Part shown: piece by piece, positions 7,035 to 29,929 of the stretch
Numbering within the stretch: position 1 is the stretch's first letter
Layout of the letters: every line of letters begins with the position of its first letter
Source: Clostridiales bacterium
GTDB lineage: Bacteria > Bacillota > Clostridia > Lachnospirales > WQUN01
DNA length: 42,326 bases
Reading direction: 5' to 3'
Assembly (NCBI GenBank): GCA_031271275.1
Contig: JAISWA010000066.1
Location: forward strand, 1-42,326
The notes under the pieces: generated by a model
Told to the model about the DNA's origin: nothing
The model's input: only the letters and a program-made list of their open reading frames with translations
Database searches by the model: none
Translations under genes and position numbers: made by a program

Positions 7035-7340
7035 ATGCAGTTTATTCAATCAACCGGCGAAAACACCGTCGTCACCTTAAAAGACCGGCTGGATTATTCC
7101 ACCGCCGCGGCACTGATGGAGGAACTTAAAACCCTTGTGGGGCAGGACATTAAACGTATAGACTTCCACTGCGGGGACTTGGCGTACATATCGAGCACCG
7201 GCATCCGCTGCATGGTGTTCGTTAAACAAAAAATCGACAAGAACGTGGATTTGGATGTGTGCCTGCACCATGTCCGGCAGGAAGTGAAAGATGTTTTTAC
7301 ACTCAGCGGGCTTGAGGATTATTTTGAATTTGTGGATTAG
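7035..7340 (+). CDS. STAS-domain anti-sigma-factor antagonist, copy 2
   Basis: ATG at 7035 follows AGGAGGA (7022-7028); the longer ORF from 6969 lacks an RBS. Motif DFHCGDLAYISSTGIRCMVF retains the Ser. Confidence 0.8.
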   Translation: MQFIQSTGENTVVTLKDRLDYSTAAALMEELKTLVGQDIKRIDFHCGDLAYISSTGIRCMVFVKQKIDKNVDLDVCLHHVRQEVKDVFTLSGLEDYFEFVD

Positions 7341-10457: not shown

Positions 10458-10470
10458 AAGGCGTGAAGAT

Positions 10471-13473: not shown

Positions 13474-13493
13474 CGGGGCAGGGGGCGGCGCGG

Positions 13494-15740: not shown

Positions 15741-15827
15741 CCCTGCGCGGGAAAGGTGGCAAAAATATCACCTTTCCCTTTTTTTATTGAAAGTCGCTCG
15801 CCATATGTAATATAAAAACATTAAGGC
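15741..15827 (+). repeat. copy 2 of the palindrome-plus-promoter module
   Basis: GGGAAAGGTG (15749-15758), 10-nt spacer, CACCTTTCCC (15769-15778), T7 run, TTGAAA (15787-15792), 18-nt spacer, TATAAA (15811-15816). See copy 1. Confidence 0.8.
15787..15816 (+). promoter_or_regulatory. sigma-A-type promoter candidate for the MATE-cupin operon
   Basis: Same hexamers and 18-nt spacing as at 4709-4738. The RBS GGAGGA (15846-15851) and TTG at 15858 lie downstream. Confidence 0.45.
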
Positions 15828-15857
15828 AGCTGCAGCCTTTTGGGGGAGGAAAAACGC

Positions 15858-17292: not shown

Positions 17293-17616
17293 ATGTTTTG
17301 TTTTCACAGGGAAATAGAAAAGAAGGATTTGGGCAAGGGCGTACTGTTTCAAAACCTCGGCGCGGGCAAAAACATGAACGTGTTCCATTGGAACATGGCG
17401 GACGGAAGCGTCGTGGAACTCCACGACCATCCCGAGGAACAGTTCGGCTACGTTATCAGGGGCGGCTTTGAAATACGGCTGAACGGTCAAAAAACGGTTA
17501 TCGGCGAGGGCGACGCCTACTTTATACCGCCGGACGCCCCCCACTCCTTTACGGCGGTGGGCGAAACGGAAGCCATTGATATTTTTACGCCGGTTAAAAG
17601 CGTTTTCCCCGCGTAA
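17293..17616 (+). CDS. cupin-domain protein
   Basis: VELHDHPEEQFGYVIRGGFEI...GDAYFIPPDAPHSF is a cupin_2 signature. The ATG lies 1 nt after the MATE stop. Confidence 0.75.
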   Translation: MFCFHREIEKKDLGKGVLFQNLGAGKNMNVFHWNMADGSVVELHDHPEEQFGYVIRGGFEIRLNGQKTVIGEGDAYFIPPDAPHSFTAVGETEAIDIFTPVKSVFPA

Positions 17617-17631: not shown

Positions 17632-20600
17632 ATGAAAAATAAAAAAGCCGCCCTGCTTTTATGTCTTGCGCTGCTCCTTTCGTTTCCGCGGCCCGCATAC
17701 GCCGCGCAGGAACCTTCCCCTTGGGCGGCGGGGGAAGTAAGCGCCGCCATACAGGCGGGAATCGTTCCGGCGGACTTCCAAACCGGCTATGACAGGACGG
17801 TCACCCGGGGCGAAGCCGTAAAACTTATTTTGCAGTCCCTGCGGGTATTTTTCCAACTTTCCAATGAGGAGCTGTTGGGGAAATTCGACCGCGCCGCCCA
17901 AACGGGCCTGTATACGGATACCTCCGACTCGGACGCGTTGGTTTCCAACGCGCTCGGGTTGGTGGGAGGGACTTCCGCCACCACCTTTTCCCCCGACCTT
18001 GCCATAACCAGAGCGCAAGCCGCCGTAATCCTCGCGCGCGCCTCGGCGATTCGCGGCATAAAGCCCAACGCCATACCGGTGGGCTTCTCCGACGCAGGGG
18101 ACTTCCCCGACTACGCGCGGGACGGCATCGCCTTTATCTCGGCGGTGCGAAACGCCGGGGGCAACCCCGTTATGTCCGGCAGTTCGGGGCTGTTTGACCC
18201 GGGCGGCGTATTCACCCGGGAGCAGCTCATTTGCGCCGTTTACCGGCTGCACACCACGCCCGCCGAAGCGAAAGCGGAAATGGCGGTTCCCAACAGCATG
18301 GTATATGTGCGGGGCGGGACTTTTACCCTGGGCAAAAATATCAGCCATGAAATTGAAACGGATTCGGCGTCGCCCCTTATCGACCCGCCCCATGAAGTCA
18401 CGGTCAGCGATTATTACATCAGCAATCTGGAAGTCACGCAAAAGCAATTTGCGGAGCTGACGGGCTATAACCCCGTCGCGGTCACGCCCTTTGCCGGAGA
18501 TAACCTTCCGGTGTTTCAAGTCACCTGGTACGACGCGGTTACCTATTGCAACAAACTTTCCGGAAAAAACGGGTTAAAGCCTGTCTATACCATCACCGAA
18601 GCGGAGGCGGACGAAACCGGCAGTATATTTGCCGCCAATGTTTCCGCCGACTACGGCGCTTCCGGCTACCGGCTGCCCTCCGAGGCCGAGTGGGTGTACG
18701 CGGCTTCCGGCGGCGGCATTTCGGAAGGTTACGCCTACGCGGGGGGCAACGTGTTGGAGGATGTGGCGTGGTACGCGGCAAACGCGTATGAAACCGAAGC
18801 GAGGGGCCCCCGCCCCGTTGGAAGCAAAAGCCCTAACGAACTGGGCTTGTACGATATGACGGGCAATGTCTCGGAATGGTGCGGCGACTGGTACGGCGGG
18901 GATTATTTCAGCAACTCCCCCGCAAACGACCCGATGGGCCCGGACACCGGAACGCAAAAAATGCGTTACGGCGGCAGTTGGATCACTTCCGGGGAATTTT
19001 CCCTGCTTGGCGTAAGGGGGCGTCTTGAGCCGGGCGCGCGCTTAAATAACCTGGGGTTCCGCGTGGCGAGAGGGTATGACGGTTTGGTTCAAGCTCCGGA
19101 GGAAATGACGGAAACACCCCCCGCGCCTGAAACGGCGGCGGAAGCGCTGCCCACCCCCAAGCCGGAGATTGTTGTAATGCCGGGCAGGACGGAAACCCGC
19201 ACGGTTACGGAAGTAAAAGAACGAATCGTGACCCGCACCGTATACGTGGAAGCGCCGCGAATACCGGAAGTGACCGTCGAAGAAGTCTTTGTGGAAGGCA
19301 CCGGAAATATACCGGCGATACTGGGAATGCCGACGGAACTGTTTAAAGATGTTGTAACAGGAAAAATACCCAAGTATTTTCCTTCCGTCGCTGAAAATCT
19401 GGTAAAGACCATACCCGTTGCGGCGCCTTTGGTCGTAGACCTGTTCGGTTCGGACTGGGGAACGTCGGCTTCTGCGTTGGATATGGCGTTGGAAACGGAA
19501 TTTGACCGGGACAGCTTAATGAATGCAAGCATAACTACCCCTGAGGAAGAACCTGCGTTCATGTCCGGCTTAACCGCAACCGTTTCCCCGGCGAGCCTGT
19601 CGTTAAGGCGGCCCGAAGACCAGAGCACCACGGATTTTGAAGCGCTGCTATCTTCCTTTTACATAGGGAAATACCCGGTCACCCAAAGGGAGTTCTCCGC
19701 CGTAATGGGGTACAACCCGTCCCAGAACAACGGCCCCGACAGGGAAAACCACCCGGCGGAGAAAGTGACTTTTTACGAGGCGGTGGAGTTTTGCAACCGG
19801 CTTTCCGACATGTACGGCTACGATAAGGTGTATACGGTTAAGACGGTAGACATCGTTCACCGGGGGCCCAACGGGGGCTGCGAGTGCGACTTGGGGGACG
19901 GCTGCATCTATAACCCCGGTCAGCCGCAGTTGGTGGATGAAATCGCGGTGGCGGACTACACCCAAAACGGTTTCCGCCTTCCCACGGAAGCGGAGTGGGA
20001 ATACGCGGCGAGAGGCGGCCCCAACCGGGAAAATTTCCTGTACAGCGGTTCGGATAATTTAGACGAAGTGGCCTGGCACGGCGCGTATACGGAACCCTAC
20101 AAAGGCGAAAACATTTATCAGGGCAAATTATACGAAGCAAACAAAACCTACGGGGCAAACGCTTCAAGCACCATGCCGGTGGGGTTGCTTGCCCCCAATT
20201 CCCTCGGAATCTACGACATGACGGGGAACGTTAACGAATGGTGCGTAAATTTCCCCGGTTTGAACCCCGACACCGTCAATTACGCGCCTGTGTACGACTA
20301 CGCGGGCGGAGCGGTAAGCGCCTACCGGAACGATATACGCCACGGAATACGCGGCGGGGCGTTTATGGTGGTCGAAAACGCAAGCAGCCAGATGGACGTG
20401 TTTTATAAATACAACCGTTCCGGCGTGGTGATAAACAACGGCTCAGGGTTTCGCGTGGCACGTTCCGTACCCGGCGGGCAGGTGGAAGATATGACGTTGG
20501 TGCATAGCGGAGGGTTTACCATGGGTACCAGCGACAATTCCAAAGCCGTATTGCCGAGGGTGCTGACCGCGAGCGAGGACTCCGCCGCCCAAGACCGTAA

Positions 20601-21417
20601 GACTGACGGCGTAAAAGTATCTCTGCGCAATTTTTACATGGGGGAAACGCAGGTCACCCAACGGGAGTTCGAAAAATACATGGGGTTTAACCCTTCCCGC
20701 TTTAAAAACGCCAACGGCCCCGTGGAGAACGTCACCTGGTACGACGCGGCGGAATTTTGCAACCGGAAAAGCCAGGCTTACGGGTTCGCGCCGTTCTATT
20801 CGCTGACGAACCCAAGCAAGTCCGGCAACAGCATCACCTATGCGGACGTAGCGCTTAATTTCGATTCGGATATCTACTGCGGGTTCCGCCTGCCGTCGGA
20901 AGCGGAGTGGCTTTTTGCCGCGCGGGGCGGCGCGCTGTCCATAGGTCATTATGTGCACAACGTAACCTCAACCCGCTTGGAGTTTCCCTATGCCGGTTCC
21001 GCCAGCGCGAGCGAAGTCGCCTGGCACAGCGTTGCCGGAAGCAACATGCCCCCCGGCCCCCAAAGCGTGGGCATGAAAAAGGCGAATGAGTTGGGCCTGT
21101 TCGATATGAGCGGAAACGTTTCGGAATGGTGCGGAGACTGGCGGGACGCCGGTTACGCGTGGCTGCGGCAGGCGGTTGGCGGCGCCGAACCGGTTACGTC
21201 GCCCTTCGGCGCGGAAACGGGGAACGGAAAAGTGATTATGGGCGGAAGTTGGGCTGACGACGCGAGCGGCGTCTGCATCGCCCCGACCGCGTCCCAACTA
21301 AATCACCAACCCGGCGGGCTTCCTGAAAACGAACCGCTGTGCAAAGCTTCGGCGGCTCCGGGCAGCGCGGCGGACACGATAGGTTTCCGCGTTGTGTTCA
21401 CCGGGCCGAGAACCTAA
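17632..21417 (+). CDS. secreted cell-surface protein: signal peptide, three SLH-like repeats, three FGE-sulfatase (SUMF1-like, C-type-lectin fold) domains
   Basis: Signal peptide MKNKKAALLLCLALLLSFPRPAYA|AQ. SLH-like repeats around 17720-18280. FGE-like domains around 18298-19075, 19657-20470 and 20491-21405, each with VTQ[KR][EQ]F, [YF]RLP[ST]EAEW.[YF]AA[RS]GG, G[LI][YF]DM[ST]GNV[SN]EWC and GFRV motifs. Confidence 0.8.
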   Translation: MKNKKAALLLCLALLLSFPRPAYAAQEPSPWAAGEVSAAIQAGIVPADFQTGYDRTVTRGEAVKLILQSLRVFFQLSNEELLGKFDRAAQTGLYTDTSDSDALVSNALGLVGGTSATTFSPDLAITRAQAAVILARASAIRGIKPNAIPVGFSDAGDFPDYARDGIAFISAVRNAGGNPVMSGSSGLFDPGGVFTREQLICAVYRLHTTPAEAKAEMAVPNSMVYVRGGTFTLGKNISHEIETDSASPLIDPPHEVTVSDYYISNLEVTQKQFAELTGYNPVAVTPFAGDNLPVFQVTWYDAVTYCNKLSGKNGLKPVYTITEAEADETGSIFAANVSADYGASGYRLPSEAEWVYAASGGGISEGYAYAGGNVLEDVAWYAANAYETEARGPRPVGSKSPNELGLYDMTGNVSEWCGDWYGGDYFSNSPANDPMGPDTGTQKMRYGGSWITSGEFSLLGVRGRLEPGARLNNLGFRVARGYDGLVQAPEEMTETPPAPETAAEALPTPKPEIVVMPGRTETRTVTEVKERIVTRTVYVEAPRIPEVTVEEVFVEGTGNIPAILGMPTELFKDVVTGKIPKYFPSVAENLVKTIPVAAPLVVDLFGSDWGTSASALDMALETEFDRDSLMNASITTPEEEPAFMSGLTATVSPASLSLRRPEDQSTTDFEALLSSFYIGKYPVTQREFSAVMGYNPSQNNGPDRENHPAEKVTFYEAVEFCNRLSDMYGYDKVYTVKTVDIVHRGPNGGCECDLGDGCIYNPGQPQLVDEIAVADYTQNGFRLPTEAEWEYAARGGPNRENFLYSGSDNLDEVAWHGAYTEPYKGENIYQGKLYEANKTYGANASSTMPVGLLAPNSLGIYDMTGNVNEWCVNFPGLNPDTVNYAPVYDYAGGAVSAYRNDIRHGIRGGAFMVVENASSQMDVFYKYNRSGVVINNGSGFRVARSVPGGQVEDMTLVHSGGFTMGTSDNSKAVLPRVLTASEDSAAQDRKTDGVKVSLRNFYMGETQVTQREFEKYMGFNPSRFKNANGPVENVTWYDAAEFCNRKSQAYGFAPFYSLTNPSKSGNSITYADVALNFDSDIYCGFRLPSEAEWLFAARGGALSIGHYVHNVTSTRLEFPYAGSASASEVAWHSVAGSNMPPGPQSVGMKKANELGLFDMSGNVSEWCGDWRDAGYAWLRQAVGGAEPVTSPFGAETGNGKVIMGGSWADDASGVCIAPTASQLNHQPGGLPENEPLCKASAAPGSAADTIGFRVVFTGPRT

Positions 21418-21448: not shown

Positions 21449-21480
21449 CAATATAAATTATATTTGAGAGGAGATTCATC

Positions 21481-22248
21481 ATGGCAAAAAAAGTATTGGT
21501 TGCCGCGACAAATTACGGTTCCTGGGGGGAGGAGCTTCAGGCTCCGTGGGACGCGCTTAAAAAAGCGGGGTATGACTTAACGCTGACCACGCCGCTCGGG
21601 AAGAAGCCGCTTCCCCTTGTGGTAAGCGTAGACCCCGATTTTGTGGACCCGGTTCAAAATTACAAAACCAACCCGCCCGAGGTTTGCGCGCGCATAAAAG
21701 AACTGGCGGACGGCGACGAATGGGCGAACCCCGTCACTTTTAAAAACGCGAAAATGGCGGACTATGACGCGATTGTACTTACCGGCGGGCTCGGCGCCAT
21801 GATTGACATGTGCAACAACTATTTCCTGCACAGGCTGATTATGGACGCGTACCGTTCGGAGAAGCTTATCGGCGCGCTGTGCTACGCGATTACCACATTG
21901 GTAAACATCCGGGATGAGAAAAACAGCGACAGAAGCATCATTTACGGGAAGCAGGTTACGGCGCACCCCGCCGCGTGGGATTTTTACGGGGATTACGACT
22001 TTACTTACGATTTGTACCACCCCACCCCCGACAACAAAGGCACGGACGTACACACCCCCGGCTTCCTCTGGCGCGTGGAGTACCTGGTGAAGGACGCCGT
22101 CGGGCCTGACGGGAAAGTATTCTGCGACCCCAAAATCTCACGGGAAAAACCCTGCGCCGTGTTTGACTGGCCGTTTGTCACCGGCTGCTCGGTGGAATCG
22201 TCCATCGCCTACGGGGATAAAATCGTCGAAGTTTTGCAAAGCCGCTGA
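21481..22248 (+). CDS. DJ-1/PfpI-superfamily (class I glutamine amidotransferase-like) protein, long form
   Basis: YDAIVLTGGLGAMIDM...KLIGALCYAITTL places the nucleophile-elbow Cys in the usual position, followed by Tyr rather than the usual His. RBS GAGAGGAG. Confidence 0.7.
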   Translation: MAKKVLVAATNYGSWGEELQAPWDALKKAGYDLTLTTPLGKKPLPLVVSVDPDFVDPVQNYKTNPPEVCARIKELADGDEWANPVTFKNAKMADYDAIVLTGGLGAMIDMCNNYFLHRLIMDAYRSEKLIGALCYAITTLVNIRDEKNSDRSIIYGKQVTAHPAAWDFYGDYDFTYDLYHPTPDNKGTDVHTPGFLWRVEYLVKDAVGPDGKVFCDPKISREKPCAVFDWPFVTGCSVESSIAYGDKIVEVLQSR

Positions 22249-22286
22249 TTGGCATTATGCGCAAGCTGCCACTCCGGGCAGCCGTC

Positions 22287-22361
22287 GTCATTCTGAGCGA
22301 AGCGAAGAATCCTTCAATGCTTACCCCTTTGAAAGATTCTTCGCCCGCGGCTCGGAATGAC
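22287..22361. repeat. REP-like palindromic element, second copy (GTCATTCTGAGCGAAGCGAAGAATC ... GATTCTTCGCCCGCGGCTCGGAATGAC)
   Basis: Arms at 22287-22311 and 22335-22361 are imperfectly complementary. The element is intergenic, between the DJ-1-like gene and the tautomerase gene. Confidence 0.7.
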
Positions 22362-22404
22362 CGGTTTGACCGTGAGGCAGCCCTGTCTCTTTGGGAGGTT
22401 TCCT

Positions 22405-22620
22405 ATGCCGGCAATAACCGTACAAAGCCTTGAACTTAACGACGACCAGAAAACCGTCCTCGCGGAGTCCTTTACCAAAATATTTTCGGAAGTTTCAAAG
22501 GTCCCCGAGGACAGGATTTATATGTTTTTCGACGGGTACCCGCTGGATAGCTGCGCCAAGGGCGGGCAGCTGTTTTCCCAAAAACCGCCGCAGTTCGCGG
22601 TGGGGAATTTTTCGAAATAG
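22405..22620 (+). CDS. tautomerase-superfamily (4-oxalocrotonate tautomerase-like) protein
   Basis: 71 aa starting MPAITVQSLELNDDQKTVLAESFTKIFSEV..P.DRIYMFF, with the catalytic Pro1 position and beta-alpha-beta pattern. RBS GGGAGG. The ORF extension from 22357 runs into the repeat element. Confidence 0.7.
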   Translation: MPAITVQSLELNDDQKTVLAESFTKIFSEVSKVPEDRIYMFFDGYPLDSCAKGGQLFSQKPPQFAVGNFSK

Positions 22621-22638
22621 CCGTAAGGAGGTCGCTCT

Positions 22639-24267
22639 ATGGACGTAAACCAATGTATTGTCAAAATCATTGAAAGCCTCGGCGTGGGCCATGTGTTCGG
22701 CGGGTCGGGGCAGGTAAACGCTTCCATGCTGCTAGCGCTGGAAAAATCCGAATCCGTCAAAACCGTTATCGTCAAAAACGAACAAGCCGCATCCTTTATG
22801 GCATGCGGTTACGCCATGTTCTCCCACAAGCTCGGCGTTTGTTTCGCCACGGGCGGCCCCGGCGCGTTTAATTTGTTTTCGGGCATGGCGGTGGCGTATT
22901 CCGATTCCCTGCCGGTGCTTGCCATCACCGGTTACACCTCGGCGGCCCTACGGGGAAAAGGCGCGCTTAACGAATCCACCGGGCTTTCCCGCACGCCGGA
23001 TTCCCACGGCATGTTCGGCGCGACCACCAAAAAATCTTTTATCATCGAAGCGCCGGAACAAACCTGCGACATCATGGAGGAAGCGGTAAACCTCGCCTTC
23101 GACGGAAGGCCGGGGCCGGTGCATATTCACATCCCCAAAGACATTACCGTGGCGCAGGTGCCGGAGTTCCGCGCGGTAAAGCTGCAAGTAAAACCGGTAG
23201 CCCCCGACCCGGCAAAAGTGCGCGAAGCCGCCGCCGCGCTTTCGTCCGGTAAAAAACCCGCGTTGCTGATCGGCTACGGGGCGGTGCGCGCCGGGGCGGG
23301 GGAGGCGCTGACGCGGCTGATAGAAAAAACGGGGATTCCCTTCATGACGACCATGGACGCGAAAGGGTATCTGCCGGAAAACCACCCGCTTTCCCTCGGC
23401 GTGTTCGGAACCTCCGGCGACAAAAGCGCCAACGCATATTTCGACGGCTGCGATACCGTGCTCGCCATCGGCAATTCTTTTGCCGAAAACGCCACCTTCG
23501 CCTTCAACCCCGCGCTTTATGACGGGAAAACCCTTATCCACGTGAATATCGACCCTCACGAGTTGGGCAAGGTTTACGCCCCGCAAATCGGAATCACAGG
23601 CGACGGGAAACTTTTCGCCGAGGCGCTGCTTCCGCTGACGGAGGAACGGCCTTTCGTTCCGGTTGCCCGCCATAAATTTGCCGACGAAGCCATAAACCAT
23701 GAGGGGCAGCGCATTCATCCCGCCGCGTTGGTGCGGGAAATTTCCAAAAACCTGCCGCCCAAGGCGGTGGTGTTGGGCGACGCGGGCGCGCACATGCTGT
23801 GGCTCAACTGCTACCTCAGCCTTGAGCAGGGGCAGATTTACCAAAACCCGGGCAGCTTCGGGCCTATGGCGAGCCATGTAAACGCCTCGATGGGCGTTGC
23901 CTGCGCCAACCCTGACCGGCCCGTCGTCTGCGCCTGCGGGGACGGCGATTATTTGATGGCGGGGTTTGAGCTGCTGACGGCGGTGGAAAACAACATCCCC
24001 GTGGTGTGGGTTATTTTTAACAACGGCGAGTTTAACATCATTAAAAAATTCTTGATAAACATGTTCGGACGGCACGCCTATATGCGATTTAAGAACCCCG
24101 ATTACGTCAAATACGCCGAAGCTTGCGGCGCGGAGGGCTTCCGCGTGACCAAGACGGCGGATTTCGCCGGGGTGTTTAAAAAGGCGTTGGCAAAACGCGC
24201 GCCGGTATTGATTGACGCGGTGGTGGAGCAGGATGTATACCCGCCCTTCGCCATGTCGCGGGTGTAA
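22639..24267 (+). CDS. thiamine-diphosphate-dependent enzyme (acetolactate-synthase-like family; substrate unknown)
   Basis: N-terminal Pyr domain (VFGGSGQVNASML...NEQAASFMACGYA...GGPGAFNL). C-terminal ThDP motif CGDGDYLMAGFELLTAVENNIPVVWVIFNNGEFN. RBS AAGGAGG. Confidence 0.85.
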   Translation: MDVNQCIVKIIESLGVGHVFGGSGQVNASMLLALEKSESVKTVIVKNEQAASFMACGYAMFSHKLGVCFATGGPGAFNLFSGMAVAYSDSLPVLAITGYTSAALRGKGALNESTGLSRTPDSHGMFGATTKKSFIIEAPEQTCDIMEEAVNLAFDGRPGPVHIHIPKDITVAQVPEFRAVKLQVKPVAPDPAKVREAAAALSSGKKPALLIGYGAVRAGAGEALTRLIEKTGIPFMTTMDAKGYLPENHPLSLGVFGTSGDKSANAYFDGCDTVLAIGNSFAENATFAFNPALYDGKTLIHVNIDPHELGKVYAPQIGITGDGKLFAEALLPLTEERPFVPVARHKFADEAINHEGQRIHPAALVREISKNLPPKAVVLGDAGAHMLWLNCYLSLEQGQIYQNPGSFGPMASHVNASMGVACANPDRPVVCACGDGDYLMAGFELLTAVENNIPVVWVIFNNGEFNIIKKFLINMFGRHAYMRFKNPDYVKYAEACGAEGFRVTKTADFAGVFKKALAKRAPVLIDAVVEQDVYPPFAMSRV

Positions 24268-24270
24268 CGG

Positions 24271-25848
24271 ATGGGTGAGCTTATGCGGTTTAAAAAAAAC
24301 CAGGCTTTTATTACGGACACCGCCACCGGCCTGCATTGGGCGGCTGAAACCGGCGCCGGCGTCAGTTGGGCGGAAGCGCCCGGTTACCTTGAGAAGCTTA
24401 ACCGCGATAGGTGGGGCGGGCTCAGCGGGTGGCGGCTGCCCACCCGGCGGGAACTGCGCACCGTCATGGATTACGGCGTCACTTCCCCCGCAATGGATTT
24501 GCGCGTGTTTGAAAATATGCCCCTGGGCAATTACTGGTGCGCGGAGGAATACCCCCTGATGGACCGCTCGTGCGCGTGGGTCATTTTTTCGGGACTGGGC
24601 AGTTCCATCGTGATGAACAAAGGGAACAGGGAAAACGTGATTGCCGTAAACGGGCCGGTTTTAAAATCCGATTTCCGGGATATGGGCGGCGGAATTATTC
24701 TGGACGAAGCCTCCGGGCTGATGTGGCAGAAGGGCGAAAACCCGCGTATGCGTCTTACGGACGCGGAAAAATACTGCCGGGAGCTGACCTTGGGCGGCTT
24801 TTCCGACTGGCGGCTGCCCACGCTGAAAGAATTGGGCTCCCTGTTGGACATGTCCTACTCCGGCGGCGGGTGGTATTTTAAAGACTTTTTCCCGGCGGAG
24901 GGGCTGAAGCCCCCGCTTCTGCATTACTTTTCCGGTACGGAATTTGAAAACCATTACGCGTGGGTCATCAATTTCTGCTTTGGCTACGACGGCTACTACG
25001 GCGGCAAAAACGCCAACCTGCTGTTCCGGGCGGTGCGAGGGGAAAAGAGCGGCTGCGAGGCTTCCACGGCGGACGCGGCGTTAAACCGGCGCGTTAATTT
25101 GAAAAACACCGCGCTTTCCAAGGAGGAAACCACCGCCGCCGGTGCGCTGACATGGGAGAGAAAAACGACGGAAGCGGGCATGGGGCTTTACACCCATGAC
25201 GAAGCAAAAGCGTATATCGACGGCTTAAACCGGTCGGCTTACGGCGGGTTTACCGACTGGCGGCTGCCCCGCCGGGAAGAACTTCGCCGGGTTTACGGCG
25301 AGCGCTGGCGGGACACCCTGCCGGAGTTTTATTGGAGCGCGGAGGACGGTCCGGAGCCGTCGCTTGCCTACGGGATTTATTTCGCCTACGGCTGCGCCAT
25401 CTGTTACCCGAAATCCAACCGCTGCAATGTGCGGGCGGTGCGCGGGGCATATAAACCGGCAAAGCTTATTCTGCTTGACAACGGCTGCGTGTTGGACGAA
25501 ACCTCCGGTCTTTACTGGAAGCGGGGCGAAAGCCCGCCGCTGACGTTGGCGGACGCGGAAAAATACTGCGCGGGTTTAAGCATAGGCGGCTTTAACGACT
25601 GGCGCGTGCCGACCATGGGCGAGCTTGCGTCGTTGGTAGATTTAAACGGAAGCCCCGGCGCGTGGTTTGACAAAAGCATGTTCCCGGACACTCAAACTTT
25701 GCCGCAGGGCTTTTATATGTCCTCCACCCCCTTCGGCGGAACCTTCCTTTGGGGCGTAAACTTCCAGTTCGGTTACGACGGGTATTACGCCGACCCGGGC
25801 AGCCCCTACCCTTTCAGGCCGGTGAGGGGAGGCGGACATGAAATTTAA
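24271..25848 (+). CDS. protein made of four tandem DUF1566 (Lcl C-terminal-like) domains; no signal peptide
   Basis: Four repeats, each with TGL.W / A..YC...GG[FL][ST][DG]WR[LV]P[TR]..EL..[LV] ... [VF]R[AP]VRG: GLSGWRLPTRRELRTV, GFSDWRLPTLKELGSL, GFTDWRLPRREELRRV, GFNDWRVPTMGELASL. Confidence 0.8.
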   Translation: MGELMRFKKNQAFITDTATGLHWAAETGAGVSWAEAPGYLEKLNRDRWGGLSGWRLPTRRELRTVMDYGVTSPAMDLRVFENMPLGNYWCAEEYPLMDRSCAWVIFSGLGSSIVMNKGNRENVIAVNGPVLKSDFRDMGGGIILDEASGLMWQKGENPRMRLTDAEKYCRELTLGGFSDWRLPTLKELGSLLDMSYSGGGWYFKDFFPAEGLKPPLLHYFSGTEFENHYAWVINFCFGYDGYYGGKNANLLFRAVRGEKSGCEASTADAALNRRVNLKNTALSKEETTAAGALTWERKTTEAGMGLYTHDEAKAYIDGLNRSAYGGFTDWRLPRREELRRVYGERWRDTLPEFYWSAEDGPEPSLAYGIYFAYGCAICYPKSNRCNVRAVRGAYKPAKLILLDNGCVLDETSGLYWKRGESPPLTLADAEKYCAGLSIGGFNDWRVPTMGELASLVDLNGSPGAWFDKSMFPDTQTLPQGFYMSSTPFGGTFLWGVNFQFGYDGYYADPGSPYPFRPVRGGGHEI

Positions 25849-27916
25849 GCAGGCGTCCCTTTCCGTGGGAATGAAGTACAGCAAATATTTCACCCTGCTT
25901 TTGGGCGAAGATAATACCCTCTGGGGCGCGGGCTCCAATTTTTTCGGGCAGCTCGGCACGGGGAATTTCGACGACTGCCTTGAGGCGACGCCGACCGGGC
26001 TCGGCGGGGTGGTTTCCGTCCGCGCGGGCAACCTTCACTCCGCAGCCCTTACGGAGGGCGGCTCGGTTTTGGGTTTCGGCCTGAACTTTGCCGGTTCCCT
26101 CGGAAGCCTGCCCCCGGGGCATAACCCCGTTCCCAAACCCATACCCGAACTTGCGGGGCTGAAAATCGCGGAAACGGGCGCGGCGGGGGATTTTACCTTC
26201 GCGCTTACGGAGGGCGGCACGCTGTATATATTGGGAAGCGGCGGCGTAAAAAAGCTCGCCGGCATAGCCGCCCTATACCCCGGGGCGAACCAAAGCTGCG
26301 TAAAAACCGGCTCCGGGGAATGGATGATATTTGAAAACGGGAAAGAGCCGGTACCGCTATCGGGCATTAGCGCGGCGGAAATCTGCGAAGTTTCCGTGGG
26401 CAATACCCATATGGCGGCGCTGACAAGCGGGGGGCGCGTCCTTTGCCGGGGGGACAATTTAAGCGGCCAGTTGGGACTGGGTTATGAAGTGGAATACAGC
26501 GCGGGTTTTACGGACATGGGGCTGACGGGGATTGTTTCCGTAGCTTCCGGCGGTTCCCACACCCTCGCGCTGAACGGCGACGGGGCGGTTTACGCCTGGG
26601 GCTTTAATTTCTTCGGGCAGTTGGGCGACGGGACCGGGGAGCGCAAAGCGCCGCAAATAGTGCGGGGACTGCCCCCCGCCGCGTTTATCGCCGCGGGGAC
26701 GTTTAATTCCATGATCGTTACCCGAGACGGGGAAGTATACGGTTGGGGCGGCGACGATTTCGGGCAGTTGGGGGATTCCGCCCGTTCGCAGATACGCGAG
26801 CCGCATTTATTGGAAGGTCTATCGGACATCAAAACGGCTTGCGCGGGTCTGTACCACACCGCGCTGCTGACGGCCGGCGGGAAGCTGTATGTCAACGGGT
26901 GCGACCTTTACGGCCAGTTGGGGGATGGGAAAAACCATACGGGCAGTTGCCGCCCCGCGCTTGTTTTAAGCGGGGTAACGGACGTTTCAGCGGGGGGAAC
27001 CCACACCGCCGTCATTTGCGAAGGCGGGAAAGTGTTGGCGTGGGGCAACAACGCCTGCGGGCAGATTGGGAACGGCAGGGCGGACATAAACCCCGACGGC
27101 AAACTGGGGAACGGGGAGCGGCGCAACGAACCTTTGCCCGTACCGGTTCCGGTTCCACGCGTAAGAATGCTGACGTCGGGGGAAAACCACACCCTGTACC
27201 TTACCCTTACCGGGGAAGTTTACGCCGCGGGGCTTAACCACTTCGGGCAGTTGGGCGACGGCTCCCGGCATAACGGCAGCGTCCCGCTTAAAATACCCGG
27301 GCTTAAAAATATTACCGAAATACACGCCCATAAATTCCGCAGCGCCGCCTTGGATAAGGACGGCAAGCTGTATTGTTGGGGCTACAACGGAAGCGGCGAG
27401 TTGGGAACCGGGGACTCCGAACCGCGTTTTACCCCAACACTTGTTATGGACGGCGTCGAAAAAGTAATTTTGGGCGGATGGTATACGCTTGCCGTAAAAA
27501 AAGACGCCACGGTTTGGGCGTTCGGCATGAACGCGGACGGGCAGTTCGGCGACGGGACCCGCACGGGAAGCCTGACCCCGAAGGAAGTCACCCCCTTTTA
27601 CGGGGCGTTTAAAGACATCGCGGCGGGCGGTTTCCATACGGTTGTATTACGGGAGGACGGGACCGTGTGGACCTGCGGGAAAAACGAGTTCGGCGAACTG
27701 GGCGGCGGCGCGGCGGGAAGCCGTAACCTGCTGACGCGGGTGCAGGGGCTGAAAGACATTGAAAGCATTTCGGCGGGGTGGTTTTGCGTGTTCGCGATAG
27801 CCAAAGGCGGGGAACTCTTTGCCTTCGGGCGCAATAACTTCGGGCAGTTGTTCGGCGCCGACACCAACCGGTACCTGCCGGTAAAAGCGCGGCAAAAAAA
27901 GGAGGCGATTGTATGA
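25838..27916 (+). CDS. RCC1-repeat (beta-propeller) protein, about 13 repeats; no signal peptide
   Basis: Recurrent G.N..GQLG.G motifs (GSNFFGQLGTGN, GDNLSGQLGLG, GFNFFGQLGDGT, GDDFGQLGDS, GCDLYGQLGDG, GNNACGQIGNG, GLNHFGQLGDGS, GYNGSGELGTGD, GMNADGQFGDGT, GKNEFGELGGG, GRNNFGQLFG). RBS GAGGGGAGG. Overlaps the upstream gene by 11 nt. Confidence 0.85.
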   Translation: MKFKQASLSVGMKYSKYFTLLLGEDNTLWGAGSNFFGQLGTGNFDDCLEATPTGLGGVVSVRAGNLHSAALTEGGSVLGFGLNFAGSLGSLPPGHNPVPKPIPELAGLKIAETGAAGDFTFALTEGGTLYILGSGGVKKLAGIAALYPGANQSCVKTGSGEWMIFENGKEPVPLSGISAAEICEVSVGNTHMAALTSGGRVLCRGDNLSGQLGLGYEVEYSAGFTDMGLTGIVSVASGGSHTLALNGDGAVYAWGFNFFGQLGDGTGERKAPQIVRGLPPAAFIAAGTFNSMIVTRDGEVYGWGGDDFGQLGDSARSQIREPHLLEGLSDIKTACAGLYHTALLTAGGKLYVNGCDLYGQLGDGKNHTGSCRPALVLSGVTDVSAGGTHTAVICEGGKVLAWGNNACGQIGNGRADINPDGKLGNGERRNEPLPVPVPVPRVRMLTSGENHTLYLTLTGEVYAAGLNHFGQLGDGSRHNGSVPLKIPGLKNITEIHAHKFRSAALDKDGKLYCWGYNGSGELGTGDSEPRFTPTLVMDGVEKVILGGWYTLAVKKDATVWAFGMNADGQFGDGTRTGSLTPKEVTPFYGAFKDIAAGGFHTVVLREDGTVWTCGKNEFGELGGGAAGSRNLLTRVQGLKDIESISAGWFCVFAIAKGGELFAFGRNNFGQLFGADTNRYLPVKARQKKEAIV

Positions 27917-28464
27917 AGAAAATCGGCGTGTTGGTGGAAAACCGCTTTATCGACCAGGAGATGATTTATTATCAGAACCGGTTCCGGGAAGCGGGTGTTG
28001 ACGCGGATTTTATGACAAGGCTTTGGGAGCAGCCGAAACTGACCTTTAAAGGGTTGGAGCTCGGGATGGAAATGACGGTGGACAAAAGCTTCGAGGATTT
28101 ATGCGAAGGCGCGTTGGAAGAATACGGCGCGTTTATCGTTCCGGCGGGCTATGTGGCGGACATGCTGCTCTATGCCGAGACCCCCGGGGAGTTGTCCCCG
28201 GCGGCGGCTTTCATCCAAAAAATCATGGCTGACCCGGAGATTGTCAAAGCCGCCATCTGCCACTCCCTGTGGCTTTGGACGCCCATCCCCGAATGCTTGC
28301 GGGGACGGCGCGTCACATGCCATAATAACATCATCGGCAGCGTGAAAAACACCGGCGCGATTTATATCGACACCGACACGGTGGTGGACGGCGATTTAAT
28401 CACCGCCCGCACCGGGGGCATGTTCGCGGAACTGGCGAAATTGATACTTGAACGGATGAAATAA
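27913..28464 (+). CDS. DJ-1/PfpI-family protein, short form
   Basis: 183 aa: KIGVLVENRFIDQE...GAFIVPAGYVADML...KAAICHSLWLW (Cys-His nucleophile elbow). ATGA overlap with the RCC1 gene. RBS AAGGAGG. Confidence 0.75.
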   Translation: MKKIGVLVENRFIDQEMIYYQNRFREAGVDADFMTRLWEQPKLTFKGLELGMEMTVDKSFEDLCEGALEEYGAFIVPAGYVADMLLYAETPGELSPAAAFIQKIMADPEIVKAAICHSLWLWTPIPECLRGRRVTCHNNIIGSVKNTGAIYIDTDTVVDGDLITARTGGMFAELAKLILERMK

Positions 28465-28468
28465 CCGG

Positions 28469-29929
28469 ATGAAAATGCCATTTCGTTTAAAGCCCCACAA
28501 CCATGCCGCGGCGGAAAGCGGAGGCATTGATTTATTGCGCCCGTTTAAAAGGCTGTTCATCATTTTCAGTGTCATTGTCTTGGCGAGCGGCATGATCGTC
28601 GCCATTTTTTCCGCGGGGCTGATGCGAAGGCAGCTGATTCTCAAGTGCATGTCGGCGGCTTCCACCGTAGCCGTACTAATCTCGGAAGATTCCGACGGGT
28701 ACGCGGCGTTTTTAAAAAATATGAATACGGAATCGGCGTATTACCAACGCGTAAAAACCCTGCTGATGAAACTGAAGCAAGCCAACCTGAGGAATGTGAA
28801 TTACCTGTACACGTCGGCGCGGGCGGACGAAAATACCATGATGTATGTGCTTGACGGGGAGGACCCGGCGGGCGGAATGTTCTCCGCTCCGGGGAAAACG
28901 GCGCAAATGACCGAAGCGGAACGCCGCGCCTACGACGAGCGAAGCGATACCGCGGGGAATGTTTTCGTTAAGAATGAAAACGGCTGGCTGTTAAGCGTCT
29001 GCGTTCCGATTGTACATAAAGACACGGGCGAGCCTTTGGGGATGGCGGTGGCAAATGTAACCGGCGCGCAGTACGGGCAGTTCCTGCTGATATACAGCCT
29101 TCAAACGATCGTGACCCTTTTAGCCGGGCTTGCGGCGTTTGCCCATGCCACCCGGCTGACTTCGGGGAAAACCCGCAGCGCGGTAAACCATAAATTATCG
29201 GAAATGCGCGAGGCGGAAGAAAAGCTCGCCACGGAGAATGAAGCCCTCGACCGGATGAACCGTTTAAAGAATGAGCTGATGACCACCATATCCCACGAGG
29301 CGCGGACGCCGCTTGCGGTGCTCTCGGGCTACGCGAGCCTTGTGGCTTTGGAGCTTAGGGACAAGGGCGCGGACGAGCAAACCACCGCCGACCTTGACAA
29401 CATTGTGGTGGAAGCCATGCGCGTGGCGGATTTAATCGACAGCATGAAGCGGCTTGCCGTTAACAGCTGCGAGTCCACGGAGTATACCCAGTTGGATTTC
29501 ACGGGGTTGGTGACGCAAATCGCGAGCCTGTACAAGCCCATCTTAAAACGGAGCGGCGTGATTTTGAATATAGACATAAAAGACCGGTTCTTTGTGTCCG
29601 GAAACAAAGACGAATTGACGCAGGTGTTTTTTAACGTACTGCAAAACGCCAAAAATCACACGGAAACCGGCAGCGTGACCGTCAGCGCGGAAAGGGAAAG
29701 CAGCCAAATCAAAATCACCGTTTCGGATACCGGAACCGGCATCCCGCCGGAGATTTTACCCCGCATCTTTGAGCGCGGCATATCGGGCCGCCCGGCGGGC
29801 ATGGGCGTCGGGCTTGCCGTAAGCAAGGAAATTATGGAAAAGCACGGCGGAACCATACAGGTGCGCAACAACCCCCATGGAAAAGGCACGGTCGCCACGC
29901 TGACGCTGCCGGAGCACACGGAAACTTAG
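28469..29929 (+). CDS. sensor histidine kinase: TM, Cache-like extracytoplasmic domain, TM, HisKA, HATPase_c
   Basis: Two TM segments flank ~150 aa (YLYTSARADENTMMYVLDGEDP...GWLLSVCVPI). H-box ISHEARTPL. NVLQNAKNHT, DTGTGI and GMGVGLAV boxes. Starts 4 nt after the DJ-1 stop (ATG 28469 or 28475). Confidence 0.85.
   Translation: MKMPFRLKPHNHAAAESGGIDLLRPFKRLFIIFSVIVLASGMIVAIFSAGLMRRQLILKCMSAASTVAVLISEDSDGYAAFLKNMNTESAYYQRVKTLLMKLKQANLRNVNYLYTSARADENTMMYVLDGEDPAGGMFSAPGKTAQMTEAERRAYDERSDTAGNVFVKNENGWLLSVCVPIVHKDTGEPLGMAVANVTGAQYGQFLLIYSLQTIVTLLAGLAAFAHATRLTSGKTRSAVNHKLSEMREAEEKLATENEALDRMNRLKNELMTTISHEARTPLAVLSGYASLVALELRDKGADEQTTADLDNIVVEAMRVADLIDSMKRLAVNSCESTEYTQLDFTGLVTQIASLYKPILKRSGVILNIDIKDRFFVSGNKDELTQVFFNVLQNAKNHTETGSVTVSAERESSQIKITVSDTGTGIPPEILPRIFERGISGRPAGMGVGLAVSKEIMEKHGGTIQVRNNPHGKGTVATLTLPEHTET

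What the first reader, a model, noticed from the sequence alone, without database searches (positions are those of the whole stretch)
22405..29929. Six translationally coupled genes: tautomerase, ThDP enzyme, 4xDUF1566, RCC1 propeller, DJ-1/PfpI, Cache histidine kinase (candidate undescribed system B)
Junctions are 18 nt (22620/22639), 3 nt (24267/24271), an 11-nt overlap (25838/25848), a 4-nt ATGA overlap (27913/27916) and 4 nt (28464/28469). This packing indicates one transcript with coupled translation. Three small-molecule enzymes are interleaved with two large repeat proteins. Those repeat proteins are normally extracellular or eukaryote-like (DUF1566, RCC1), yet here they lack any signal peptide or TM segment. 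A membrane sensor kinase closes the operon. I know of no characterised pathway or system with this composition. Directly upstream lies a surface protein built from the related FGE/C-type-lectin-like fold. Possible roles are a sensing or scaffolding complex around a reactive-metabolite pathway, or a non-classically exported surface or adhesion module.
Basis: partly seen in the sequence, partly recalled or inferred. Interest (0 to 1): 0.8.

Follow-up and report, generated by a model that had tools for sequence, protein, structure and literature searches.

The report
Fragment of a widespread uncharacterised enzyme cluster
The six tightly packed genes are real, but four of them belong to a much larger gene cluster of unknown function conserved in many bacterial phyla, while the RCC1 propeller and the sensor kinase were found only in this genome.

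Summary
The six ORFs, their junctions and all domain calls except "Cache" are confirmed. The unit is mis-delimited.

Tautomerase, ThDP enzyme, 4xDUF1566 and DJ-1/PfpI belong to a cluster conserved across at least 10 phylum-level lineages. Enzyme identity to the window is 45-83%.

- Anchored on 4xDUF1566: 20/20 non-redundant loci with enough upstream flank carry ThDP, tautomerase and ThiJ-like. Of 51 control loci with distant DUF1566 proteins, 0 do.
- Anchored on ThiJ-like: 38/39 loci carry ThDP, 36/39 tautomerase, 31/39 AGE and 28/39 isoamylase. Only 14/39 carry 4xDUF1566, and 0/39 carry RCC1 or the kinase.

So the lectin-like protein, efflux pumps and FGE-like proteins are optional. RCC1 and the kinase are lineage-specific.

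In this genome the cluster is split into two operons, each preceded by the same ~72-nt hairpin-plus-promoter cassette.

No paper, defence-system model or equivalog family model matched the cluster.

My best model is inferred, not shown: a partner-switch-gated defence against reactive carbonyls and electrophiles, coupled to alpha-glucan mobilisation. Variants add nitroreductase, flavodoxin-like reductases, VOC and ABM genes.

The parts
4669..4740 (+). Regulatory cassette, copy 1: perfect palindrome GGGAAAGGTGGCAAAAATGTCACCTTTCCC, a T-run, then TTGAAA...TGTAATAT promoter-like hexamers. It lies upstream of the AGE operon.
   Evidence: There are two copies in the window and 0 expected by chance. 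Both lie in divergent intergenic regions.
4785..6605 (+). AGE-family (GlcNAc 2-epimerase-like) 606-aa protein. Conserved core member.
   Evidence: Pfam. It is 58-71% identical to co-located orthologues and is present in 31/39 ThiJ-anchored loci.
6616..6945 (+). STAS (anti-sigma-antagonist-like) protein 1.
   Evidence: Pfam; tblastn. The motif reads ...VASSGL..., so the phosphorylatable Ser is present (read directly from the sequence).
7035..7340 (+). STAS protein 2. Other genomes have an isoamylase gene between the two STAS genes; here there is only an 89-nt gap.
   Evidence: No isoamylase match was found anywhere in the window.
7353..7769 (+). RsbW-like serine kinase (HATPase_c_2).
   Evidence: Pfam E=6e-21. 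It is 31-50% identical to cluster orthologues.
10447..13473 (+). Membrane PP2C phosphatase (SpoIIE domain) with dCache and HAMP sensor domains.
   Evidence: Pfam. The PP2C part is 40-54% identical to the cluster phosphatases.
13458..14192 (+). OmpR-type response regulator overlapping the phosphatase gene. Candidate partner of the orphan kinase at 28469 (inference).
   Evidence: Pfam. It is not conserved in other loci.
15747..15818 (+). Regulatory cassette, copy 2, 85% identical to copy 1. It lies upstream of the MatE-to-kinase operon.
15840..17291 (+). MatE efflux pump. Occupies the optional exporter slot.
   Evidence: Pfam. The same slot holds MFS in Omnitrophota, two ABC exporters in Oscillospiraceae and MatE in Selenomonadaceae.
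17293..17616 (+). Small metal-binding cupin, starting 1 nt after the MatE stop. Core member.
   Evidence: Pfam Cupin_2. It is 51-79% identical to orthologues and present in 36/39 loci. The His/Glu motif is conserved.
17632..21417 (+). Secreted, SLH-anchored protein with three FGE-sulfatase-like domains. Occupies the optional surface slot.
   Evidence: Pfam; signal peptide. Other lineages have analogous secreted FGE-like proteins, but similarity is only at domain level.
21481..22248 (+). ThiJ-like (Hsp31/glyoxalase-III-like) DJ-1 superfamily protein. The best-conserved core member.
   Evidence: Pfam. It is 63-83% identical to orthologues, with 81% mean column identity. Cys134 is invariant. PDB relatives are listed.
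22249..22404 (+). REP-like long hairpin element between the ThiJ-like and tautomerase genes.
   Evidence: dG -68.6 kcal/mol, z = -5. A related copy lies at 14218-14282.
22405..22620 (+). 4-oxalocrotonate-tautomerase-family protein (71 aa, Pro1).
   Evidence: Pfam; NCBIfam DmpI E=2e-11 but below its cut-off. Pro1 is invariant in 24 sequences. Present in 36/39 loci.
22639..24267 (+). AHAS/BbmA-like ThDP-dependent enzyme.
   Evidence: Pfam. Best PDB relative is BbmA at E=3e-95. It scores below every equivalog cut-off. Glu47 and the GDG...NN motif are conserved. Present in 38/39 loci.
24271..25848 (+). Cytoplasmic protein of four tandem DUF1566/Lcl_C (C-type-lectin-like) domains. Optional module. 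It lacks the two ~65-aa head segments of its orthologues.
   Evidence: The model (pLDDT 76.6) matches tandem CTLD receptors and Lcl C-terminal domain 8q4e. 20/20 non-redundant ortholog loci with at least 4 kb upstream carry the cluster enzymes.
25838..27916 (+). RCC1-repeat protein, probably about 13-14 blades from its length (inference). No export signal. Lineage-specific insertion whose ends overlap both neighbouring genes.
   Evidence: It has no co-located homologue in any related locus. Best database relatives are only about 30% identical.
27913..28464 (+). DJ-1/PfpI-type protein (183 aa) with an invariant Cys-His. Core member.
   Evidence: It is 42-66% identical to orthologues and present in 27/39 loci.
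28469..29929 (+). Two-TM sensor histidine kinase (HisKA plus HATPase_c) with an unclassified extracytoplasmic domain. Lineage-specific.
   Evidence: It has no co-located homologue in related loci.

Best explanation
What it is. The six-gene block is the 3' end of one lineage-specific version of a conserved, horizontally spread gene cluster.

Shown:
- The core is AGE-family isomerase/epimerase, STAS, isoamylase, STAS, RsbW-like kinase, PP2C phosphatase with variable sensor domains, DJ-1/PfpI, a small cupin, a ThiJ-like (Hsp31-like) protein, a 4-OT tautomerase and an AHAS/BbmA-like ThDP enzyme.
- An optional module adds the cytoplasmic 4xDUF1566 lectin-like protein, an efflux pump (MFS, MatE or ABC) and FGE-like proteins, which are often secreted.
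- In this genome the cluster has lost isoamylase from the window.
- It is split into two operons (4785-14192 and 15840-29929). Each is preceded by the same hairpin-plus-promoter cassette.
- It has gained an RCC1 protein and an orphan histidine kinase.

How it probably works (inferred; about 0.35 for this specific model):
1. A signal sensed by the PP2C phosphatase flips the STAS/RsbW partner switch. Here the kinase and the OmpR-type regulator may add a second input.
2. No sigma factor gene was seen in the cluster, so the switch probably acts on the cluster's own enzymes.
3. Stored alpha-glucan is mobilised by isoamylase and the AGE protein.
4. The DJ-1, ThiJ, cupin, tautomerase and ThDP set converts reactive 2-oxoaldehydes, unsaturated 2-oxo acids or quinone-type electrophiles into harmless products. 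The tautomerase would feed the keto form to the ThDP enzyme.
5. The pumps expel the products.
6. The lectin-like and propeller proteins (4xDUF1566, RCC1, WG repeats) act as non-catalytic binders or scaffolds.
For: Co-occurrence:
- DUF1566-anchored loci from GTDB genomes: 20/20 non-redundant loci with at least 4 kb upstream carry ThDP, tautomerase and ThiJ-like. 14/14 loci with long flanks also carry cupin and DJ-1, and 13/14 carry AGE.
- Control: 0/51 loci with distant DUF1566 proteins carry any of them.
- ThiJ-anchored metagenome loci of at least 12 kb: ThDP 38/39, tautomerase 36, cupin 36, AGE 31, isoamylase 28, STAS 29, RsbW 29, DJ-1 27, DUF1566x4 14, RCC1 0, kinase 0.

Synteny holds in Omnitrophota, Armatimonadota, Bacteroidota, Spirochaetota, Riflebacteria, Dependentiae, Clostridia and Negativicutes, by the submitters' labels.

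Catalytic residues are intact (ThiJ Cys): Pro1, the Cys-His of DJ-1, the Cys of ThiJ, the cupin His/Glu, and Glu plus GDG-NN in the ThDP enzyme.

A complete partner-switch set is present in the window.

The two operons share a cis cassette.

Three non-homologous efflux families occupy the same slot.

Accessory genes in variants are classic electrophile or quinone detoxification families: Nitroreductase, Flavodoxin_2, FMN_red, VOC/glyoxalase, ABM, CMD and an alpha/beta-hydrolase.

The nearest solved relatives of the ThiJ-like protein include glutathione-independent glyoxalase III.

Parallel: the B. subtilis SigB general-stress regulon lists ydaP, ydaE and yfkM (PMC7824861). That these are a ThDP pyruvate-oxidase-like protein, a cupin isomerase and a DJ-1/PfpI protein is from my own knowledge.
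Against: - No function was tested, and no substrate is known for any member.
- The link between the glucan enzymes and the carbonyl enzymes is conserved synteny only.
- The ThDP enzyme's closest solved relative (BbmA) looks like a biocatalysis or natural-product carboligase, judged from the entry name alone. That would fit a biosynthetic role equally well.
- Efflux pumps and secreted FGE-like proteins fit export of a made product as well as detoxification.
- The role of the lectin-like proteins is unexplained.
- Phylum labels come from MAG submitters and some bins may be wrong.
- The window's own genome lacks isoamylase within 42 kb.
Confidence: 0.5

Rival explanations
1. Biosynthetic gene cluster. 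The ThDP carboligase, with tautomerase, cupin, ABM and DJ-1-type tailoring enzymes, makes a small acyloin, butenolide or reductone-type molecule, possibly sugar-derived through isoamylase and AGE. The MFS, MatE or ABC pump exports it, and secreted FGE-like proteins bind or mature it outside the cell.
For: - The best solved relative of the ThDP enzyme is BbmA/CsmA rather than AHAS.
- Exporters of three families replace each other in the same slot.
- The FGE-like proteins show PvdO-like similarity and are secreted in several lineages.
- ABM, cupin, YCII and CMD are common tailoring families.
Against: - Exporters and FGE-like proteins are optional: 10-11 of 39 loci.
- There is no scaffold-building enzyme apart from the ThDP enzyme.
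- Very high cross-phylum sequence conservation, and presence in MAGs labelled Omnitrophota and Dependentiae (lineages that, from my own knowledge, tend to have small genomes), is unusual for secondary metabolism.
- Nitroreductase and quinone-reductase accessories fit detoxification better.
Confidence: 0.2
2. Catabolic pathway for an exogenous glycoside or an aromatic or unsaturated acid. Surface lectin-like proteins capture the substrate. Isoamylase and AGE process the sugar part. Cupin, tautomerase, ThDP and DJ-1 enzymes degrade the aglycone or keto-acid.
For: - The cluster combines carbohydrate-active enzymes with 4-OT, VOC, cupin and CMD families typical of ring-cleavage pathways.
- Surface FGE, autotransporter or lipoprotein genes, and a solute-binding protein, occur in some variants.
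Against: - The transporters are efflux-type, and no dedicated importer is conserved.
- No dehydrogenase, CoA ligase or aldolase completes a pathway.
- Regulation by a partner switch rather than a substrate-responsive transcription factor is atypical.
- The hosts appear to be mostly anaerobes (my inference from their taxa and sample types), whereas many of these ring-cleavage chemistries need O2.
Confidence: 0.12
3. One reading: the six genes form a self-contained sensing or scaffolding complex, or a non-classically exported adhesion module, built around DUF1566 and RCC1 and closed by a sensor kinase.
For: - RCC1 overlaps both neighbouring genes, so it is expressed with them.
- Bacteroidota variants carry WG-repeat proteins in a similar position. 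A repeat-protein binder slot next to 4xDUF1566 may therefore be a recurring feature.
Against: - RCC1 and the kinase have no co-located homologue in any related locus.
- 4xDUF1566 is optional.
- Neither protein has an export signal.
- The 4xDUF1566 orthologues keep many invariant residues (mean column identity 63% in A1), where surface adhesins would be expected to diversify (my expectation).
- The cluster extends well beyond the six genes.
Confidence: 0.08
4. Anti-phage defence system, or a target of a diversity-generating retroelement (DGR).
For: DUF1566 and FGE-like C-type-lectin folds are common DGR targets, according to titles and abstracts listed.
Against: - No PADLOC model hits any of the nine non-kinase proteins scanned. 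The kinase gives one weak ATPase-domain hit.
- No reverse transcriptase was found among the large ORFs scanned, and no template/variable repeat pair was found.
- The sequence conservation is housekeeping-like.
Confidence: 0.02

Closest known systems
RsbV-RsbW-RsbU / SpoIIAA-SpoIIAB-SpoIIE partner-switching modules
   Same: STAS proteins with the phosphorylatable Ser, an HATPase_c_2 serine kinase and a PP2C phosphatase with variable sensor domains are encoded together, both in the window and in nearly all related loci.
   Different: No sigma factor gene was found in the cluster. Two STAS genes flank an enzyme gene (isoamylase), and the conserved cargo is a fixed set of enzymes. The output is therefore probably not a sigma factor. 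SypA/SypE control of polysaccharide synthesis is the nearest precedent I can recall.
B. subtilis SigB general-stress regulon and quinone/aldehyde regulons (MhqR/YodB type)
   Same: The protein families are the same: a ThDP pyruvate-oxidase-like protein, a cupin, DJ-1/PfpI, flavodoxin-like reductases, nitroreductase and VOC. ydaP, ydaE and yfkM are listed as SigB regulon genes in PMC7824861.
   Different: Those are dispersed regulons under a sigma factor or repressor. This is a compact, syntenic, horizontally shared cluster that includes the glucan enzymes. The family assignments of the B. subtilis genes come from my memory, and orthology was not tested.
BbmA/CsmA (PDB 8x3x, 8xod, 8x3z) and acetohydroxyacid synthase large subunits
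   Same: The three-domain ThDP fold is alignable over the whole length. E=3e-95 to BbmA and 1e-66 to AHAS. The cofactor motifs are present.
   Different: It scores below every NCBIfam equivalog cut-off, for example 344 bits against 509 for the best-scoring AHAS large-subunit model (PRK08322). No AHAS small subunit is nearby. I could not retrieve the function of BbmA.
4-oxalocrotonate tautomerase (DmpI)
   Same: About 70 aa, with an N-terminal Pro1 that is invariant across orthologues, and a Pfam Tautomerase hit.
   Different: It scores below the DmpI equivalog cut-off (43.7 against 70 bits). 4-OT's Arg11 position is Asn here (read from the sequence). No meta-cleavage pathway genes are nearby.
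Hsp31/Glx3 glyoxalase III and PfpI/YhbO deglycase-type DJ-1 proteins
   Same: DJ-1/PfpI fold with a conserved nucleophile Cys (Cys-His in the 183-aa protein). PDB relatives include glyoxalase III 4lru.
   Different: Both proteins score far below the equivalog cut-offs. The ThiJ-like protein forms its own extremely conserved family.
Legionella Lcl C-terminal domain and tandem C-type-lectin receptors
   Same: Four Lcl_C domains. The model matches 8q4e (TM-score 0.60 normalised to the target) and the tandem CTLDs of mannose receptor and PLA2R.
   Different: It has no signal peptide, no collagen-like region and a cytoplasmic enzyme context. It is not an adhesin by any tested criterion.

Membership tests
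Tautomerase superfamily (4-OT type) | Short beta-alpha-beta subunit of about 60-70 aa with a catalytic N-terminal Pro1 | tested here: met
   71 aa with a Met-Pro start. Pfam scores 23.4 bits against a cut-off of 22. Pro1 is invariant in 24 sequences.
4-oxalocrotonate tautomerase DmpI (equivalog) | Score above the NCBIfam cut-off | tested here: not met
   43.7 bits against a cut-off of 70.
ThDP-dependent enzymes, POX/AHAS class | N, M and C domains, the cofactor-activating Glu and the GDG-X(n)-NN motif | tested here: met
   All three Pfam domains are present. Glu47 and GDGDY...NNGEFN are conserved.
Acetolactate synthase large subunit (equivalog) | Score above the equivalog cut-off | tested here: not met
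   Best score is 344 bits against a cut-off of 509.
DJ-1/PfpI superfamily | Flavodoxin-like fold with a nucleophile-elbow Cys | tested here: met
   Both the 183-aa and the 255-aa proteins score above the Pfam cut-off. The Cys is invariant in both, as Cys-His in the 183-aa protein.
Lcl-type adhesin | Secreted protein with a collagen-like region and one C-terminal Lcl_C domain | tested here: not met
   Four Lcl_C domains with no signal peptide. The adhesin_Lcl model scores 20.6 bits against a cut-off of 500.
RCC1-like domain proteins | Tandem RCC1 blades of about 50 aa | tested here: met
   10-11 repeats. WD40_RLD scores 567 bits. The DNA repeat period is about 147-150 nt.
Two-component sensor histidine kinase | HisKA with the H-box His, an HATPase_c domain and a membrane sensor region | tested here: met
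   The H-box reads SHEARTPL.
Cache-domain sensor | A Cache/PDC domain between the TM segments | tested here: inconclusive
   No Pfam hit at E<=1. The AlphaFold model has pLDDT 30-40 in that region.
Partner-switching system | STAS antagonist, HATPase_c_2 kinase and PP2C phosphatase encoded together | tested here: met
   Window genes at 6616, 7035, 7353 and 10447. The set is conserved in related loci.
Partner-switching system | A cognate sigma factor as the output | tested here: not met
   No sigma-70 family domain was found among the window ORFs scanned or among the called genes of related loci.
Single operon with translational coupling | Same strand, gaps under 20 nt or overlaps, and no internal terminator | tested here: met
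   Whether it is one transcript cannot be tested here. A strong hairpin lies just upstream, at 22249-22404.
Known anti-phage defence systems (PADLOC) | A match to any system model | tested here: not met
   The only hit is a weak ATPase-domain match of the kinase.

The most novel reading that the evidence does not exclude
The conserved core (AGE, STAS, isoamylase, STAS, RsbW, PP2C, DJ-1, cupin, ThiJ-like, 4-OT, ThDP) encodes an undescribed pathway found across many anaerobic phyla. In it a partner switch controls enzymes directly rather than a sigma factor, and it links stored alpha-glucan to a new 2-oxo or dicarbonyl chemistry. Cytoplasmic lectin-like and propeller proteins (4xDUF1566, RCC1, WG repeats) would serve as interchangeable substrate-binding or scaffold modules.
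Probability: 0.35. Interest if true: 0.85.

Novelty: new variant of a known kind. Interest (0 to 1): 0.68.

Why it matters
- A roughly 11-gene core that keeps its order and 45-83% amino-acid identity from Omnitrophota to rumen and human-gut Firmicutes and Bacteroidota has no description that I could find. A gene set this conserved and this widely shared is likely to matter for the physiology of anaerobes.
- It offers a concrete case for asking what partner-switching modules control when no sigma factor is present.
- It also asks what lectin-like DUF1566 and FGE folds do inside the cell.
- For annotation, the ThiJ-like protein is a sharp marker for the whole cluster. 'Acetolactate synthase' and 'adhesin-like' labels on its members are probably misleading.

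Tried and rejected
- Literature searches for DUF1566 with tautomerase, for combinations of the cluster's families, and for BbmA/CsmA found nothing relevant. DUF1566 papers concern DGR targets, Legionella Lcl and Leptospira surface proteins.
- PADLOC gave no defence-system match.
- Rfam gave nothing in the window or in the low-GC gap.
- A PDB sequence search with the 4xDUF1566 profile gave no hit. The AGE protein gave only marginal hits.
- RCC1 homologues are generic at about 30% identity. The one RCC1-only Omnitrophota protein of similar size (699 aa) that I checked sits in an unrelated context.
- The cassette palindrome was not found in any related locus.
- The kinase sensor region shows no similarity to the window's own dCache domain, and its AlphaFold model was unusable.
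- The secreted giant FGE protein of a Lachnospiraceae locus is only a domain-level relative of the window's FGE/SLH protein, not an orthologue.
- The exact-sequence look-up of the 525-aa 4xDUF1566 product found nothing. The 521-aa form is on a single 1.8-kb contig. The source organism therefore stays unidentified. It is probably a member of the Clostridia, judged from the SLH domain and the nearest AGE and DJ-1 relatives.

Full report
OBSERVATION

The six + strand ORFs are at the stated coordinates. Shine-Dalgarno motifs precede the tautomerase (GGGAGG), ThDP (AAGGAGG), RCC1 (GGGGAGG) and DJ-1 (AAGGAGG) genes. The 4xDUF1566 gene has a better Shine-Dalgarno if it starts at 24283, which is the start called on a public contig.

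Pfam confirms Tautomerase, TPP_enzyme_N/M/C, four Lcl_C domains, 10-11 RCC1 repeats, DJ-1_PfpI, and HisKA plus HATPase_c. The two repeat proteins have no hydrophobic N-terminus or TM-like segment. The kinase has two TM segments. Promoter-like and terminator-like hits inside the block are at the shuffle level.

Three details fail or need correction.
- 'Cache' has no HMM support even at E<=1. A single-sequence AlphaFold model of the sensor region is unusable.
- The FGE/SLH protein is not directly upstream. A 255-aa ThiJ-like gene and a 156-nt hairpin element lie between.
- The co-directional, tightly spaced run starts at 15840: MatE, then cupin after 1 nt, FGE/SLH after 15 nt, the ThiJ-like gene after 63 nt, and the tautomerase after 156 nt.

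THE BLOCK IS PART OF A CONSERVED CLUSTER

Homologues of the 4xDUF1566 protein form a tight family: about 40-45% identity, about 660 aa, and no signal peptide. Their neighbourhoods repeat the window's genes. An Armatimonadota contig reads ThDP, ThiJ-like, tautomerase, FGE, FGE, 4xDUF1566, MFS, AGE, STAS, isoamylase, STAS, RsbW, DJ-1. Omnitrophota, Bacteroidota and a Firmicutes MAG contig carry permutations of the same set.

A scan of one genome per GTDB species returned 28 loci whose match to the query is strong and near full-length (L011-L038), which I treat as orthologous. By their record titles they come from Omnitrophota, Spirochaetota, Bacteroidota, Planctomycetales, Fusobacteriales, Oscillospiraceae, Ruminococcus, Lachnospiraceae, Eubacteriales, Selenomonadaceae and Pelosinus.

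Of the non-redundant loci with at least 4 kb upstream, 20/20 carry ThDP, tautomerase and ThiJ-like, and 18/20 carry the cupin. Of those with long flanks on both sides, 14/14 also carry cupin and DJ-1, and 13/14 carry AGE. Identities to the window in these loci are ThiJ-like 58-74%, ThDP 58-65%, tautomerase 46-66%, DJ-1 42-65% and AGE 58-71%. As a control, 51 loci holding distant DUF1566 proteins contain none of these genes.

- a cupin at 17293-17616
- two STAS genes at 6616 and 7035
- an RsbW-like kinase at 7353
- the PP2C domain of the dCache/HAMP SpoIIE protein at 10447-13473

No isoamylase, VOC or MFS gene is in the window.

CORE VERSUS OPTIONAL PARTS

The ThiJ-like protein is extremely conserved, with 81% mean column identity across labelled phyla. 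Its closest relatives (81-83% identical) sit in clusters that have the whole enzyme and partner-switch set plus ABM, VOC and extra cupin and tautomerase genes, but no 4xDUF1566. A Riflebacteria version is similar. A contig labelled Dependentiae has 4xDUF1566.

A metagenome scan anchored on the ThiJ-like protein gave 39 loci of at least 12 kb:

| Gene | Loci carrying it (of 39) |
|---|---|
| ThDP | 38 |
| tautomerase | 36 |
| cupin | 36 |
| AGE | 31 |
| STAS | 29 |
| RsbW | 29 |
| isoamylase | 28 |
| DJ-1 | 27 |
| 4xDUF1566 | 14 |
| FGE | 11 |
| MFS | 10 |
| VOC | 10 |
| RCC1 | 0 |
| kinase | 0 |

So 4xDUF1566 was found with the enzyme genes in every locus with enough flank, but the cluster often lacks 4xDUF1566.

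The exporter slot after 4xDUF1566 is filled by MFS (Omnitrophota), two ABC exporters (Oscillospiraceae) or MatE (Selenomonadaceae, Lachnospiraceae, this window). FGE-like proteins are secreted in Omnitrophota and here, where the protein is SLH-anchored, but they are only domain-level relatives of each other.

RCC1 has no co-located homologue anywhere, and its best database relatives are generic at about 30% identity. Bacteroidota variants carry two WG-repeat proteins without signal peptides next to 4xDUF1566. This suggests a variable slot for repeat-protein binders.

THIS GENOME'S ARRANGEMENT

The cluster is split into two co-directional operons, 4785-14192 and 15840-29929. Exactly two copies of a ~72-nt cassette lie in the window, one in front of each operon. 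Each cassette has a perfect 30-nt palindrome, a T-run and promoter-like hexamers. The two copies are 85% identical, with 0 expected by chance. I read this as shared transcriptional control.

Between the operons lies a low-GC insert (GC 0.42-0.45). By my reading of the translations, without HMM confirmation, it holds a PIN-like toxin and an AbrB/MazE-like antitoxin pair. A HAD hydrolase gene (Pfam) lies beside them. Three unrelated membrane or transferase genes sit between the RsbW and PP2C genes. Where other genomes have isoamylase between the two STAS genes, the window has an 89-nt gap.

The orphan kinase at the end of operon 2 and the orphan OmpR-type regulator at the end of operon 1 may be a pair (inference).

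WHAT THE PROTEINS LOOK LIKE

Catalytic residues are conserved across orthologues (ThiJ Cys): tautomerase Pro1, DJ-1 Cys-His, the ThiJ-like Cys, the cupin His/Glu motif, and Glu47 plus the GDG-NN motif of the ThDP enzyme.

The ThDP enzyme is closest to PDB BbmA (E=3e-95) and CsmA, then to AHAS. It scores below every NCBIfam equivalog cut-off.

The nearest solved relatives of the ThiJ-like protein include fungal glyoxalase III.

The 4xDUF1566 model (pLDDT 76.6) matches tandem C-type-lectin receptors and Legionella Lcl C-terminal domain. The window's copy lacks the two ~65-aa head segments of its orthologues.

FUNCTION

Nothing here tests function. Three lines of evidence lead me to favour a stress model.
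1. The core enzymes all do carbonyl, enol or 2-oxo-acid chemistry.
2. Lineage-specific additions are nitroreductase, Flavodoxin_2, FMN_red, VOC, ABM, CMD, an alpha/beta-hydrolase and efflux pumps. In my knowledge these are the usual electrophile and quinone detoxification families.
3. A complete partner switch with variable sensor phosphatases (cNMP-binding, HAMP, dCache, 5TMR-LYT) is part of the cluster, with no sigma factor seen.

The B. subtilis SigB regulon offers a parallel: ydaP, ydaE and yfkM are listed as members (PMC7824861). Their family assignments come from my memory.

The model is that the switch gates glucan mobilisation (isoamylase, AGE) together with disposal of reactive carbonyls (DJ-1, ThiJ-like, cupin, tautomerase feeding the ThDP enzyme), followed by efflux. 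I put about 0.35 on this specific model. A biosynthetic cluster for an exported small molecule (0.2) and a catabolic pathway (0.12) remain open. Defence-system and DGR readings are disfavoured.

NOVELTY

No paper in the searchable library describes this combination. The parts belong to known superfamilies and to a known type of signalling module, so I file it as a new variant of known kinds. I give a 0.35 chance that it is a new pathway with direct enzyme control by a partner switch.

Limits: phylum labels are the submitters' own, the literature library is incomplete, and the source organism of the window is not identified.

Noticed in passing
window 4669-4740 and 15747-15818: A ~72-nt cassette (perfect 30-nt palindrome, T-run, promoter-like hexamers) occurs exactly twice. 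One copy precedes each half of the split cluster, and both lie in divergent intergenic regions.
   Followed up: yes
window 22287-22360 and 14218-14282: REP-like long hairpins share the arm GTCAT(T/C)CTGAGCGAAGCGAAG. One lies between the ThiJ-like and tautomerase genes (dG -68.6 kcal/mol, z = -5). The other lies just after the response-regulator gene.
   Followed up: partly
window 14323-14987 (- strand), within the low-GC stretch 14001-16000: An apparent toxin-antitoxin pair: a 134-aa PIN-like protein and an 87-aa AbrB/MazE-like protein, by my reading of the translations without HMM confirmation. Together with a HAD hydrolase gene they form a GC 0.42-0.45 insert that separates the two operons.
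   Followed up: partly
window 6945-7035: Only 89 nt separate the two STAS genes. Most related genomes have a ~700-aa isoamylase gene there, and the window has no isoamylase at all.
   Followed up: yes
window 7720-10457: Three genes are embedded in operon 1 between the RsbW and PP2C genes: LPG_synthase_C-like, EamA, and a 299-aa membrane protein with no Pfam hit. They have no counterpart in related clusters.
   Followed up: partly
window 27-2947: A FIST-domain protein overlaps a PAS/HisKA/HATPase/receiver hybrid kinase. This looks like a separate signalling pair at the window's start.
   Followed up: no
window 22948-24336 (- strand): A 462-aa antisense ORF lies inside the ThDP gene. It is Arg/Gly/Pro-rich and is most likely a spurious ORF of GC-rich coding DNA.
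   Followed up: no
window 33285-33350: A 30-nt-arm inverted repeat (83% complementary, 6-nt loop) lies upstream of the pyruvate carboxylase gene at 33472.
   Followed up: no
L154 4516-9933 and L152 12888-16929: Clusters from a human-gut metagenome contig (L154) and a second metagenome contig (L152) carry three to four paralogous ~430-aa proteins with no Pfam hit, plus lipoproteins, one with a faint Lcl_C hit. These are further uncharacterised accessory families.
   Followed up: partly
L029 5542-6981, L032, L034 and L035: In Selenomonadaceae the two DJ-1-type genes appear fused into one protein of about 470-500 aa. A nitroreductase and two flavodoxin-like reductases join the cluster.
   Followed up: partly
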